DNA of 64,000 bases from Escherichia coli (GTDB lineage Bacteria > Pseudomonadota > Gammaproteobacteria > Enterobacterales > Enterobacteriaceae), in NCBI RefSeq assembly GCF_003334405.1, contig NZ_QOWM01000006.1, one strand, 5' to 3'. The notes beneath the pieces were generated by a model. That model was not told where the DNA came from. It did no database searches and worked only from the letters and a program-made list of their open reading frames with translations. The position numbers and the translations under genes were made by a program. Positions 48,393-50,285 of this stretch are shown here, piece by piece (position 1 is the first letter of the stretch; the number at the start of each line of letters is the position of its first letter).

Positions 48393-50285
48393 ATGGCTAT
48401 CGAAATCAAAGTACCGGACATCGGGGCTGATGAAGTTGAAATCACCGAGATCCTGGTCAAAGTGGGCGACAAAGTTGAAGCCGAACAGTCGCTGATCACC
48501 GTAGAAGGCGACAAAGCCTCTATGGAAGTTCCGTCTCCGCAGGCGGGTATCGTTAAAGAGATCAAAGTCTCTGTTGGCGATAAAACCCAGACCGGCGCAC
48601 TGATTATGATTTTCGATTCCGCCGACGGTGCAGCAGACGCTGCACCTGCTCAGGCAGAAGAGAAGAAAGAAGCAGCTCCGGCAGCAGCACCAGCGGCTGC
48701 GGCGGCAAAAGACGTTAACGTTCCGGATATCGGCAGCGACGAAGTTGAAGTGACCGAAATCCTGGTGAAAGTTGGCGATAAAGTTGAAGCTGAACAGTCG
48801 CTGATCACCGTAGAAGGCGACAAGGCTTCTATGGAAGTTCCGGCTCCGTTTGCTGGCACCGTGAAAGAGATCAAAGTGAACGTGGGTGATAAAGTGTCTA
48901 CCGGCTCGCTGATTATGGTCTTCGAAGTCGCGGGTGAAGCAGGCGCGGAAGCTCCGGCCGCTAAACAGGAAGCAGCTCCGGCAGCGGCCCCTGCACCAGC
49001 GGCTGGCGTGAAAGAAGTTAACGTTCCGGATATCGGCGGTGACGAAGTTGAAGTGACTGAAGTGATGGTGAAAGTGGGCGACAAAGTTGCCGCTGAACAG
49101 TCACTGATCACCGTAGAAGGCGACAAAGCTTCTATGGAAGTTCCGGCGCCGTTTGCAGGCGTCGTGAAGGAACTGAAAGTCAACGTTGGCGATAAAGTGA
49201 AAACTGGCTCGCTGATTATGATCTTCGAAGTTGAAGGCGCAGCGCCTGCGGCAGCTCCTGCGAAACAGGAAGCGGCAGCGCCGGCACCGGCAGCAAAAGC
49301 TGAAGCCCCGGCAGCAGCACCAGCTGCGAAAGCGGAAGGCAAATCTGAATTTGCTGAAAACGACGCTTATGTTCACGCGACTCCGCTGATCCGCCGTCTG
49401 GCACGCGAGTTTGGTGTTAACCTTGCGAAAGTGAAGGGCACTGGCCGTAAAGGTCGTATCCTGCGCGAAGACGTTCAGGCTTACGTGAAAGAAGCTATCA
49501 AACGTGCAGAAGCAGCTCCGGCAGCGACTGGCGGTGGTATCCCTGGCATGCTGCCGTGGCCGAAGGTGGACTTCAGCAAGTTTGGTGAAATCGAAGAAGT
49601 GGAACTGGGCCGCATCCAGAAAATCTCTGGTGCGAACCTGAGCCGTAACTGGGTAATGATCCCGCATGTTACTCACTTCGACAAAACCGATATCACCGAG
49701 TTGGAAGCGTTCCGTAAACAGCAGAACGAAGAAGCGGCGAAACGTAAGCTGGATGTGAAGATCACCCCGGTTGTCTTCATCATGAAAGCCGTTGCTGCAG
49801 CTCTTGAGCAGATGCCTCGCTTCAATAGTTCGCTGTCGGAAGACGGTCAGCGTCTGACCCTGAAGAAATACATCAACATCGGTGTGGCGGTGGATACCCC
49901 GAACGGTCTGGTTGTTCCGGTATTCAAAGACGTCAACAAGAAAGGCATCATCGAGCTGTCTCGCGAGCTGATGACTATTTCTAAGAAAGCGCGTGACGGT
50001 AAGCTGACTGCGGGCGAAATGCAGGGCGGTTGCTTCACCATCTCCAGCATCGGCGGCCTGGGTACTACCCACTTCGCGCCGATTGTGAACGCGCCGGAAG
50101 TGGCTATCCTCGGCGTTTCCAAGTCCGCGATGGAGCCGGTGTGGAATGGTAAAGAGTTCGTGCCGCGTCTGATGCTGCCGATTTCTCTCTCCTTCGACCA
50201 CCGCGTGATCGACGGTGCTGATGGTGCCCGTTTCATTACCATCATTAACAACACGCTGTCTGACATTCGCCGTCTGGTGATGTAA
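48393..50285 (+). CDS. aceF: Dihydrolipoyllysine acetyltransferase (PDH E2), 630 aa
   Basis: 630-aa ORF with three tandem lipoyl domains (each containing [10 protein letters not shown]), Ala/Pro-rich linkers and a C-terminal catalytic domain (DHRVIDG). Confidence 0.98.
48396..49330 (+). repeat. Threefold tandem repeat (about 300 bp each) encoding the AceF lipoyl domains
   Basis: Three near-identical segments such as gaagttgaagtgaccgaaatcctggtgaaagttggcgataaagttgaagctgaacagtcgctgatcaccgtagaaggcgacaaggcttctatggaagttccg. Confidence 0.9.

What the first reader, a model, noticed from the sequence alone, without database searches (positions are those of the whole stretch)
48396..49330. Threefold tandem duplication encoding the AceF lipoyl domains
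Three units of about 300 bp with high nucleotide identity encode the three lipoyl domains and their Ala/Pro linkers. Such repeats are substrates for RecA-dependent deletion or expansion, so domain number can differ between strains or lab derivatives. The antisense strand of this region produces long Ala/Gly-rich spurious ORFs (48650..49342 and 49101..50330).
Basis: seen in the sequence. Interest (0 to 1): 0.15.

Follow-up and report, generated by a model that had tools for sequence, protein, structure and literature searches.

The report
Three tandem lipoyl domains of aceF
This is the well-known 5' part of the E. coli aceF gene, where three head-to-tail ~300-bp units encode the three lipoyl "swinging-arm" domains of pyruvate dehydrogenase; it is ordinary, although about 0.2% of complete E. 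coli genomes have lost all or part of one unit.

Summary
Observation confirmed. Window 48393..50285 (+) is aceF (630 aa), in a pdhR-aceE-aceF-lpd operon that is nearly identical to E. coli K-12. Its first 942 nt are three in-frame tandem units starting at 48393, 48702 and 49005. Each unit encodes a 74-aa lipoyl domain plus an Ala/Pro linker.

- **Identity:** the domain cores are 77-86% identical at the nucleotide level. Linkers are only 57-63% identical.
- **Copy-number prediction holds.** A flank-only BLAST survey of 5,424 complete E. coli genomes found 12 with in-frame deletions.
  - Eight are clean two-domain alleles (-300 to -309 nt).
  - Four belong to one clone with a -192 nt domain-and-a-half fusion.
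  - Together they define at least five junction classes.
- **No expansions in complete genomes.** Four-domain alleles appear only in draft or metagenome assemblies and are unverified.
- **Mechanism:** junction homologies are 5-53 nt, so RecA dependence is not shown. RecA-independent misalignment is at least as likely.
- **Age:** the triplication predates the Escherichia/Salmonella split, yet synonymous codons are more alike than codon bias predicts.
- **Antisense ORFs:** both exist at the stated coordinates and are by-products of codon bias.

Verdict: already known, low interest.

The parts
48393..50285 (+). aceF coding sequence (630 aa): dihydrolipoyllysine-residue acetyltransferase, the E2p core of the pyruvate dehydrogenase complex
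   Evidence: ORF. Pfam domains. NCBIfam NF008814 scores 1101 bits. RefSeq annotates it as aceF. PDB 7B9K chain matches over residues 1-330.
48396..48617 (+). Lipoyl domain 1 (aa 2-75). The lipoyl-lysine K41 codon is at 48513-48515.
   Evidence: Pfam PF00364, E=1.3e-21. The [10 protein letters not shown] motif was located. Coordinates.
48618..48704 (+). Ala/Pro-rich linker 1 (aa 76-104). It contains two short words that are repeated in or at linker 2: 48669-48685 and 48687-48699.
   Evidence: (family D2). These words are the deletion junctions of strains FDAARGOS_1283 and DSM 103263.
48705..48926 (+). Lipoyl domain 2 (aa 105-178). The K144 codon is at 48822-48824.
   Evidence: Pfam PF00364, E=5.4e-23..
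48927..49007 (+). Ala/Pro-rich linker 2 (aa 179-205). It carries the window-specific A186E change at 48949.
49008..49229 (+). Lipoyl domain 3 (aa 206-279). The K245 codon is at 49125-49127.
   Evidence: Pfam PF00364, E=4e-22. Matches PDB 1QJO and 2K7V..
49230..49370 (+). Long Ala/Pro-rich linker 3 (aa 280-326). It holds a 12-nt micro-repeat at 49239-49262, and its length varies between strains (-12 nt, +36 nt).
   Evidence: TRF period-12 row. (strains 98202 and 300709)..
49371..49478 (+). Peripheral-subunit-binding domain (aa 327-362)
   Evidence: Pfam PF02817, E=7.5e-16.
49587..50279 (+). Catalytic acetyltransferase / core-forming domain (aa 399-629). The DHRVIDG active-site motif is at 50196-50216.
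   Evidence: Pfam PF00198, E=3.4e-80. Motif located.
48483..48514 (+). Longest exact word shared between units: 32 nt, repeated at 48792-48823. It encodes [11 protein letters not shown] around the lipoyl-lysine and lies beside the zones where the domain-internal crossovers map (48516-48534/48825-48843 for lip1/lip2; 48801-48854/49104-49157 for lip2/lip3).
   Evidence: longest exact matches. (breakpoint intervals of strains C2, Rb-50, C4, VTB97379v and 01_3327).
48650..49342 (-). Spurious antisense ORF (230 aa; Ala/Ser/Thr-rich)
   Evidence: No NCBIfam family. Only 7 stops occur in this antisense frame across all of aceF. Composition.
49101..50330 (-). Spurious antisense ORF (409 aa; Arg/Phe-rich) in the exact reverse-complement codon frame
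   Evidence: Its stop is the reverse complement of the only TCA codon in aceF, at 49101. aceF has no TTA or CTA codons. Permuting aceF's own synonymous codons gives antisense stop-free runs of 409 aa or more in 425 of 500 trials. No NCBIfam family.

Best explanation
**What it is (shown).** The region is the 5' third of aceF. Three in-frame tandem units each encode one ~74-residue lipoyl domain plus a flexible Ala/Pro linker. Each domain carries its lipoyl-lysine in an [10 protein letters not shown] hairpin (K41, K144, K245). The peripheral-subunit-binding domain and the catalytic core domain follow.

**What it does (established knowledge).** The lipoylated domains act as swinging arms. They carry acetyl groups and reducing equivalents between the E1p, E2p and E3 active sites of the 24-mer pyruvate dehydrogenase complex.

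**How the DNA behaves (inferred from sequence comparisons).**
- The triplication is old. Each unit has a positional orthologue in Salmonella.
- The units have not diverged freely. Synonymous codons are more alike than codon bias predicts, and in distant three-domain E2p proteins the domains resemble each other more than they resemble any E. coli unit.
- This implies occasional DNA exchange, or loss-and-regain turnover, between units.
- Misalignment between units at short identical tracts (5-53 nt), either in the conserved Lys-hairpin core or in the linkers, gives in-frame unit deletions.
- These deletions persist at about 0.2% of complete E. coli genomes, because one or two domains are enough for activity.
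- The misalignment is more likely RecA-independent template switching or slippage than classical RecA recombination, but this is not tested.

**Antisense ORFs.** The long ORFs on the opposite strand are a side effect of the codon bias of a highly expressed gene.
For: **Gene and domain identity**
- ORF; three PF00364 domains plus PF02817 and PF00198.
- NF008814 at 1101 bits and TIGR01348 at 1040 bits.
- Matches to PDB 7B9K, 1QJO and 2K7V.
- Operon context and near-identity to K-12: 5 mismatches in 13.9 kb.

**Repeat structure:**

**Codon-level similarity beyond codon bias.** Identical codons at identical degenerate residues:

| Pair | Observed | Expected | z |
|---|---|---|---|
| lip1 vs lip2 | 39 of 57 | 29.8 | 2.6 |
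| lip1 vs lip3 | 37 of 54 | 28.1 | 2.6 |
| lip2 vs lip3 | 49 of 62 | 31.9 | 4.65 |

**Age of the triplication**
- Salmonella units match E. coli units 1, 2 and 3 at 0.96, 0.93 and 0.91, against 0.73-0.88 for paralogous pairs.
- In distant three-domain homologues, identity within one protein is typically 0.58-0.82, against 0.38-0.58 to any E. coli unit.

**Population survey**
- Twelve of 5,424 complete genomes bring the flanks 192-309 nt closer together.
- None puts them more than 1,100 nt apart.
- All sequenced variants are in frame with intact ORFs.
- Junctions were mapped.
- The lip2/3-hybrid allele sits on four haplotypes that differ at 16-30 of 1,839 sites.
- The same protein sequences recur on 2 to 454 other contigs.

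**Function with fewer domains**
- Guest et al. 1985: one domain suffices (cited in PMC5013485).
- Dave et al. 1995: a lower lipoyl-domain content lowers growth rate and yield (title cited in PMC10579247).

**RecA-independent deletion** between close direct repeats shorter than 200 bp is described in PMC7145654.

**Antisense ORFs:**
Against: - Nothing contradicts the gene identity.
- For the DNA-dynamics part, the excess codon identity could reflect position-specific codon preferences or mRNA constraints rather than gene conversion.
- The within-protein similarity in distant taxa could come from independent duplications rather than homogenisation.
- I could not see the reads or the sequencing technology behind the 12 variant genomes.
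- Many extra contigs carrying the 527-aa allele are short short-read or metagenome contigs. A de Bruijn-graph shortcut through the 32-53-nt shared word could fake a deletion there.
- RecA involvement cannot be read from sequence.
Confidence: 0.95

Rival explanations
1. Static repeat. The three units are anciently duplicated domains kept similar only by selection on the protein and on codon usage. There is no ongoing DNA-level exchange or copy-number change, and every apparent variant is an assembly artefact.
For: - Positional orthology with Salmonella.
- 99.8% of complete genomes have the three-unit length.
- The four-domain alleles come from draft or short-read metagenome assemblies.
- One Citrobacter protein looks scrambled.
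- The 527-aa allele is mostly on short contigs.
Against: - Junction classes with only 17, 13 and 5 nt of homology cannot arise from k-mer graph shortcuts.
- The -192 nt allele is identical in four separately assembled complete genomes.
- The lip2/3-hybrid allele occurs in four complete genomes on different haplotypes.
- Codon identity exceeds the codon-bias expectation, z up to 4.65.
Confidence: 0.04
2. The copy-number changes arise by classical RecA-dependent homologous recombination (unequal sister-chromatid exchange).
For: - The lip2/3-hybrid class has up to 53 nt of uninterrupted identity at its junction, and the lip1/2 class lies in a 32-nt shared word region.
- These lengths are at or above the roughly 25-bp minimum for RecA pairing (my own knowledge).
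- Reciprocal four-domain products (units 1, 2/1, 2, 3 and units 1, 2, 3/2, 3) are reported in draft assemblies.
Against: - Three of the five junction classes use only 5-17 nt of identity.
- The domain cores are 14-23% diverged, which mismatch repair strongly penalises (my own knowledge).
- Close direct repeats shorter than 200 bp delete prominently without RecA (PMC7145654).
- No four-domain allele occurs in any complete genome.
Confidence: 0.3
3. One or both long antisense ORFs (48650..49342 and 49101..50330, minus strand) are real overlapping genes.
For: They are long (230 and 409 aa) and start with TTG and ATG respectively.
Against: - No NCBIfam family matches either one.
- The 409-aa ORF is in the exact reverse-complement codon frame. 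Its stop is the reverse complement of the single TCA codon of aceF.
- Shuffling aceF's own synonymous codons gives equally long antisense runs in 85% of trials.
- The same pattern appears over aceE and lpd.
- No promoter-like site lies upstream of either ORF within 48200-50700.
Confidence: 0.01

Closest known systems
E. coli K-12 AceF (UniProt P06959; PDB 7B9K full chain, 1QJO and 2K7V lipoyl domain 3)
   Same: Same length (630 aa) and same order of three lipoyl domains, the subunit-binding domain and the catalytic domain. Same operon. The DNA is 99.9% identical.
   Different: Two nucleotide differences: 48890 T instead of C (synonymous, D166) and 48949 A instead of C (A186E in linker 2). This exact protein is seen on 7 other public contigs.
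Engineered aceF alleles with one, two or up to nine lipoyl domains (Guest laboratory: Guest et al. 1985 J Mol Biol 185:743; Dave et al. 1995 Microbiology 141:1839; the nine-domain constructs of Machado et al. 1992 are cited from memory)
   Same: In-frame removal or addition of whole ~300-bp units. Complexes with fewer domains remain active.
   Different: Those were made in vitro. The 527-530-aa alleles found here are natural, with junctions in the Lys-hairpin core or in the linkers. Their activity has not been measured.
E2p of other bacteria with different lipoyl-domain numbers (for example Azotobacter vinelandii, PDB 1IYU; Neisseria meningitidis, PDB 1GJX; Serratia symbiotica AceF reduced to one or two domains, PMC5013485)
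   Same: Same domain type and the same modular N-terminal array. Among the 150 best 50%-identity representatives, 46 have one domain, 95 have two, 8 have three and 1 has four.
   Different: Three domains is a minority state among relatives. Within distant three-domain proteins the domains resemble each other more than they resemble the E. coli units.
SucB (E2o of 2-oxoglutarate dehydrogenase)
   Same: Homologous lipoyl, subunit-binding and catalytic domains. The NF004309 and TIGR01347 models match the last lipoyl domain onward.
   Different: SucB has a single lipoyl domain and no tandem DNA repeat. The scores are below those families' cut-offs (349 bits against 449).

Membership tests
AceF / long-form E2p dihydrolipoyllysine-residue acetyltransferase (NCBIfam NF008814, TIGR01348) | Full-length match to the curated equivalog model, above its cut-off | tested here: met
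   NF008814 scores 1101.1 bits (cut-off 722) over residues 1-630. TIGR01348 scores 1040.6 bits (cut-off 552).
AceF / long-form E2p dihydrolipoyllysine-residue acetyltransferase (NCBIfam NF008814, TIGR01348) | N-terminal lipoyl domain(s) with the conserved lipoyl-lysine in a DKA hairpin | tested here: met
   Three PF00364 hits, E from 1e-21 to 5e-23. [10 protein letters not shown] occurs three times, with K41, K144 and K245.
AceF / long-form E2p dihydrolipoyllysine-residue acetyltransferase (NCBIfam NF008814, TIGR01348) | Peripheral-subunit-binding domain and C-terminal 2-oxoacid_dh catalytic domain with the DHRxxDG motif | tested here: met
   PF02817 at aa 327-362 and PF00198 at aa 399-629. 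DHRVIDG at aa 602-608.
AceF / long-form E2p dihydrolipoyllysine-residue acetyltransferase (NCBIfam NF008814, TIGR01348) | Operon context with E1p (aceE) upstream and E3 (lpd) downstream | tested here: met
   The ORFs for pdhR, aceE, aceF and lpd lie in order. The matching RefSeq annotation agrees.
AceF / long-form E2p dihydrolipoyllysine-residue acetyltransferase (NCBIfam NF008814, TIGR01348) | Lipoylation of the three lysines and acetyltransferase activity | not testable with these tools
   This needs mass spectrometry or an enzyme assay. For the K-12 protein it is documented in PMC8421416.
Copy-number-variable intragenic tandem repeat (misalignment-prone) | At least two head-to-tail copies whose unit length is a multiple of three | tested here: met
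   Units of 309 and 303 nt, with a third of about 330 nt that includes the longer linker.
Copy-number-variable intragenic tandem repeat (misalignment-prone) | Copy-number polymorphism actually observed among strains | tested here: met
   Twelve of 5,424 complete genomes have in-frame deletions (-192 and -300 to -309 nt), in at least five junction classes. There are no expansions in complete genomes. Four-domain alleles appear only in drafts.
   Only junction homologies can be read: 5, 13, 17, 18 and 8-53 nt. A genetic test in a recA deletion strain is needed.
Contingency / phase-variable repeat locus (considered and rejected) | Short units (1-9 nt) or near-identical repeats that switch at high frequency and toggle expression | tested here: not met
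   The units are about 300 nt and only 71-78% identical. Of the complete genomes, 99.8% share one length class. All variants stay in frame.

The most novel reading that the evidence does not exclude
The rare natural two-domain alleles, and the 566-aa 'three half-domain' allele of a Taiwanese bloodstream clone, might not be neutral or mildly harmful accidents. They could be selected variants that tune pyruvate dehydrogenase capacity or lipoate demand in particular niches. Recurrent loss and regain of units would then also be the process that keeps lipoyl domains homogenised within each species.
Probability: 0.07. Interest if true: 0.35.

Novelty: already known. Interest (0 to 1): 0.12.

Why it matters
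The three-lipoyl-domain architecture of E. coli AceF has been textbook knowledge since the 1980s, so the finding adds nothing new about the gene.

It has modest practical value:
- The repeat can be mis-assembled from short reads. Scrambled and four-domain AceF proteins appear in draft and metagenome assemblies.
- NCBI's annotation pipeline flags an intact two-domain allele as a pseudogene.
- A small, previously little-noted fraction of natural E. coli (about 0.15-0.2% of complete genomes) carries fewer than three intact domains. This is the natural counterpart of the classic engineered deletion alleles.

Tried and rejected
- **AlphaFold2 on the chimeric segment.** A single-sequence prediction of the 119-residue lip2/lip3 segment of the 566-aa allele gave mean pLDDT 40.6. 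It is uninformative and I made no fold claim from it.
- **Literature on evolved deletions.** A full-text search for aceF, in-frame deletion, lipoyl and evolved returned no papers. I found no paper in the held library that describes natural lipoyl-domain number polymorphism within E. coli. That is not proof that none exists.
- **RNA families and signals.** Rfam finds no RNA family inside aceF. The promoter/terminator scan of 48200-50700 finds counts no higher than shuffled sequence. The one promoter-like site is in the aceF-lpd spacer.
- **Coverage statistics of the full-gene BLAST**. These could not reveal unit deletions, because a 303-nt loss still covers more than 80% of the query. I replaced it with flank-only queries tuned to the tool's piece-joining distance.
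- **Contig counts as prevalence.** I considered using the counts and rejected it. Most contigs with the 527-aa allele are short short-read contigs.
- **Other readings rejected.** Contingency locus and real antisense genes were both rejected (see the membership test and rival explanations).
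Full report

The + strand carries a 630-aa ORF at 48393..50285. Three independent tools find the repeat:
- Tandem Repeats Finder reports an array at 48414-49231 with period 303, 2.7 copies, 80% matches and score 1003.
- The repeat finder reports one family of three ~300-nt copies spaced 309 and 303 nt apart.
- A sliding 240-nt self-comparison peaks at offsets 303 (84% identity), 309 (76%) and 612 (75%). All other in-frame offsets stay at or below 45%.

Identity is moderate:
- Whole units are 71-78% identical.
- The 222-nt domain cores are 77-86% identical.
- The linkers are 57-63% identical.
- The longest perfectly shared words are 32, 26 and 23 nt.

**2. What is it?**

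Pfam finds the following:

| Domain | Residues |
|---|---|
| Biotin_lipoyl | 4-73 |
| Biotin_lipoyl | 107-176 |
| Biotin_lipoyl | 207-277 |
| E3_binding | 327-362 |
| 2-oxoacid_dh catalytic | 399-629 |

- The NCBIfam equivalog for AceF (NF008814) scores 1101 bits against a cut-off of 722.
- The motif [10 protein letters not shown] occurs three times, placing the lipoyl-lysines at K41, K144 and K245. DHRVIDG is at residues 602-608.
- Solved structures of the same protein exist: 7B9K for the full chain, and 1QJO and 2K7V for domain 3.
- The neighbours are aroP, pdhR, aceE, lpd, yacH and acnB.
- The window differs from a K-12 lineage genome at 5 of 13,893 positions. Two of these are in aceF: a synonymous change at 48890, and A186E in linker 2 at 48949. 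That exact protein is on 7 other public contigs.
- The literature describes the three domains as redundant swinging arms joined by flexible Ala/Pro linkers (PMC8421416; PMC10849603).

**3. Is the nucleotide similarity just protein constraint?** Not entirely.

At residues identical between two domains, identical codons are used more often than aceE/aceF/lpd codon usage predicts:

| Pair | Observed | Expected | z |
|---|---|---|---|
| lip1 vs lip2 | 39 of 57 | 29.8 | 2.6 |
| lip1 vs lip3 | 37 of 54 | 28.1 | 2.6 |
| lip2 vs lip3 | 49 of 62 | 31.9 | 4.65 |

The triplication is still old. Salmonella units match E. coli units 1, 2 and 3 at 96, 93 and 91% protein identity, against 73-88% for paralogous pairs.

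Among the 150 best 50%-identity representatives of the family, 46 have one lipoyl domain, 95 have two, 8 have three and 1 has four. In the distant three-domain proteins, domains within one protein are typically 58-82% identical, but only 38-58% identical to any E. coli unit. That pattern indicates either concerted evolution or repeated independent duplication. I cannot separate the two.

**4. Does copy number vary between strains?**

A full-gene megablast cannot show this, because a 303-nt loss still covers 84% of the query. I therefore used queries made only of the unique flanks.

- **Deletion detector (600-nt query, join limit 800 nt).** Twelve of 5,424 genomes join the flanks.
- **Expansion detector (1,200-nt query, join limit 1,100 nt).** All 5,424 genomes join. 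None has a gap as large as a four-unit array, which would be 1,245 nt.

I fetched 11 variant loci (nine of the twelve deletion genomes plus two linker-length variants). All have intact, in-frame ORFs. Junction mapping gives five deletion classes:

| Class | Junction | Change | Protein | Identical tract at junction | Strains |
|---|---|---|---|---|---|
| a | lip2/lip3 hybrid domain | -303 nt | 529 aa | 8-53 nt around the Lys hairpin | C2, Rb-50, C4, VTB97379v |
| b | linker 1 / linker 2 | -300 nt | 530 aa | 17 nt (GAAGCNGCTCCGGCAGC) | FDAARGOS_1283 |
| c | end of linker 1 / linker 2-lip3 boundary | -306 nt | 528 aa | 13 nt | DSM 103263 |
| d | lip1/lip2 hybrid domain | -309 nt | 527 aa | 18 nt | 01_3327, 03_3013 |
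| e | the two internal GDKV motifs (C-half of lip2 to N-half of lip3) | -192 nt | 566 aa | 5 nt | 447, 439, 446, 463 (one Taiwanese blood clone) |

- The class (a) genomes sit on haplotypes that differ at 16-30 of 1,839 sites.
- Class (e) yields a domain-and-a-half fusion with two lipoyl-lysine hairpins.
- 03_3013 (class d) and 439, 446 and 463 (class e) were placed by their matching flank spacing; their loci were not fetched.

Linker 3 also varies:
- -12 nt (loss of AAAP) in 5 of the 69 rows listed.
- +36 nt (a 12-residue tandem duplication) in strain 300709.

**5. Are the variants real?**

Exact-sequence look-ups find the same proteins on other contigs:

| Allele | Other contigs |
|---|---|
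| 527 aa | 454 |
| 529 aa | 182 |
| 642 aa | 91 |
| 530 aa | 22 |
| 566 aa | 6 |
| 528 aa | 2 |

The 90%-identity cluster that holds the 528-530-aa alleles has 305 members.

There are caveats:
- Most contigs carrying the 527-aa allele are short short-read or metagenome contigs.
- The 41 four-domain proteins among the top 120 hits come from draft or metagenome assemblies.
- One Citrobacter protein looks permuted.
- Graph shortcuts or loops through the 32-53-nt shared word are therefore a plausible artefact for classes (a) and (d), and for the four-domain alleles.

Classes (b), (c) and (e) use 17, 13 and 5 nt of homology. That is shorter than practical assembly k-mers, and these classes occur in complete genomes, four independent ones for class (e). 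I therefore treat natural contraction as established. Expansion in E. coli remains unverified. Two Salmonella four-domain proteins do sit on chromosome-size contigs.

**6. Mechanism of rearrangement.**

The sequence cannot decide this. Three things lean towards RecA-independent template switching or slippage, at least for the short-homology junctions:
- The junction homologies are only 5-53 nt.
- The domain cores are 14-23% diverged.
- Direct repeats shorter than 200 bp that lie close together delete prominently without RecA (PMC7145654).

I give the classical RecA route about 0.3 as the main pathway.

**7. Function of variants.**

- Guest et al. 1985 showed that one domain suffices (cited in PMC5013485).
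- Dave et al. 1995 reported that a lower lipoyl-domain content lowers growth rate and yield (title cited in PMC10579247).
- This fits a mildly harmful or neutral polymorphism held at about 0.2%.
- Serratia symbiotica has lost one or two domains during genome reduction.

**8. Antisense ORFs.**

Both exist at the stated coordinates.
- The 409-aa ORF reads the exact reverse complement of aceF codons. aceF has no TTA or CTA codons and one TCA, at 49101, whose reverse complement is the stop that ends that ORF.
- Permuting aceF's own synonymous codons gives antisense stop-free runs of 409 aa or more in 425 of 500 trials.
- The 230-aa ORF lies in a frame with only 7 stops across the whole gene.
- Neither ORF matches any NCBIfam family.
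- The same artefact covers aceE and lpd.
- Only the first ORF is Ala-rich; the second is Arg/Phe-rich.

**9. Verdict.**

The feature is already known and ordinary.

The one addition from this work is a quantified natural contraction polymorphism, 12 of 5,424 complete genomes in five junction classes. It also carries a warning that short-read assemblies and annotation pipelines mishandle this repeat.

Noticed in passing
window 48890 and 48949: The window's aceF differs from K-12-lineage aceF at two sites. At 48890 it has T instead of C (synonymous D166). This makes the unit-2 codon GAT, identical to the homologous codon in units 1 and 3. At 48949 it has A instead of C, giving A186E in linker 2. 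This exact protein is on only 7 other public contigs.
   Followed up: partly
L006 (NZ_CP183089, strain 447) 1801-3501; also strains 439, 446, 463: A Taiwanese bloodstream clone carries a 566-aa AceF. A 192-nt deletion joins the GDKV motif in the C-terminal half of lipoyl domain 2 to the GDKV motif in the N-terminal half of domain 3. The result is three half-domains with two lipoyl-lysine hairpins. A single-sequence AlphaFold model was too poor to say how it folds (pLDDT 40.6).
   Followed up: partly
L008 (NZ_CP074961, strain 01_3327) 1801-3384: NCBI's annotation marks this aceF as a pseudogene, 'incomplete; missing N-terminus'. The 527-aa ORF is intact from its ATG and simply has a lip1/lip2 hybrid domain.
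   Followed up: yes
Proteins P0032-P0076; loci L013-L015: Forty-one of the 120 best-scoring AceF relatives have four lipoyl domains (727-738 aa). Some look like reciprocals of the deletion alleles. They come from draft or short-read metagenome assemblies. One Citrobacter protein (P0069) has its units in a permuted order, which suggests assembly loops through the shared word.
   Followed up: partly
window 49230-49370 (linker 3); L002, L009: Linker 3 is length-polymorphic in E. coli. It is 12 nt shorter (loss of AAAP) in 5 of the 69 rows listed. It is 36 nt longer (tandem duplication of [12 protein letters not shown]) in strain 300709, and that 642-aa protein is on 91 contigs.
   Followed up: partly
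window 45964..48237 (-), 50691..51194 (-), 51204..52061 (-): Long antisense ORFs also cover aceE (757 aa) and lpd. Each ends at the reverse complement of one of the very few TCA or TTA codons in the sense gene, the same codon-bias artefact as over aceF.
   Followed up: yes
window 45599-45712 (-): Rfam family tp2 (RF02030, 103 bits) lies in the pdhR-aceE spacer on the opposite strand. Other gathering-level hits in the window are SgrS at 65-291, Leu_leader at 6271-6420, a PssrA-like hit at 27922-28011, STnc40 at 33658-33727 and two naRNA4 copies at 34131-34324.
   Followed up: no
window 50381-50408 and 50383: The only promoter-like site in 48200-50700 is in the aceF-lpd spacer (TTGAAA, 16-nt spacer, TAAAAT). 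One of the five differences from strain PG20180059 (window G, that strain A, at 50383) falls in its first hexamer. I did not determine which state is ancestral.
   Followed up: no
L003 (NZ_CP107281, strain JCL301): This laboratory strain lacks everything from the end of ampE to the last 96 nt of aceF (aroP, pdhR, aceE and most of aceF). It looks like an engineered deletion, not a repeat-mediated event.
   Followed up: partly
Protein collection cluster 1: The 90%-identity cluster that holds the 630-aa AceF also contains many 887-aa AceE proteins, and its representative is 887 aa. This is probably a clustering artefact, so cluster sizes for AceF should not be read as allele counts.
   Followed up: no
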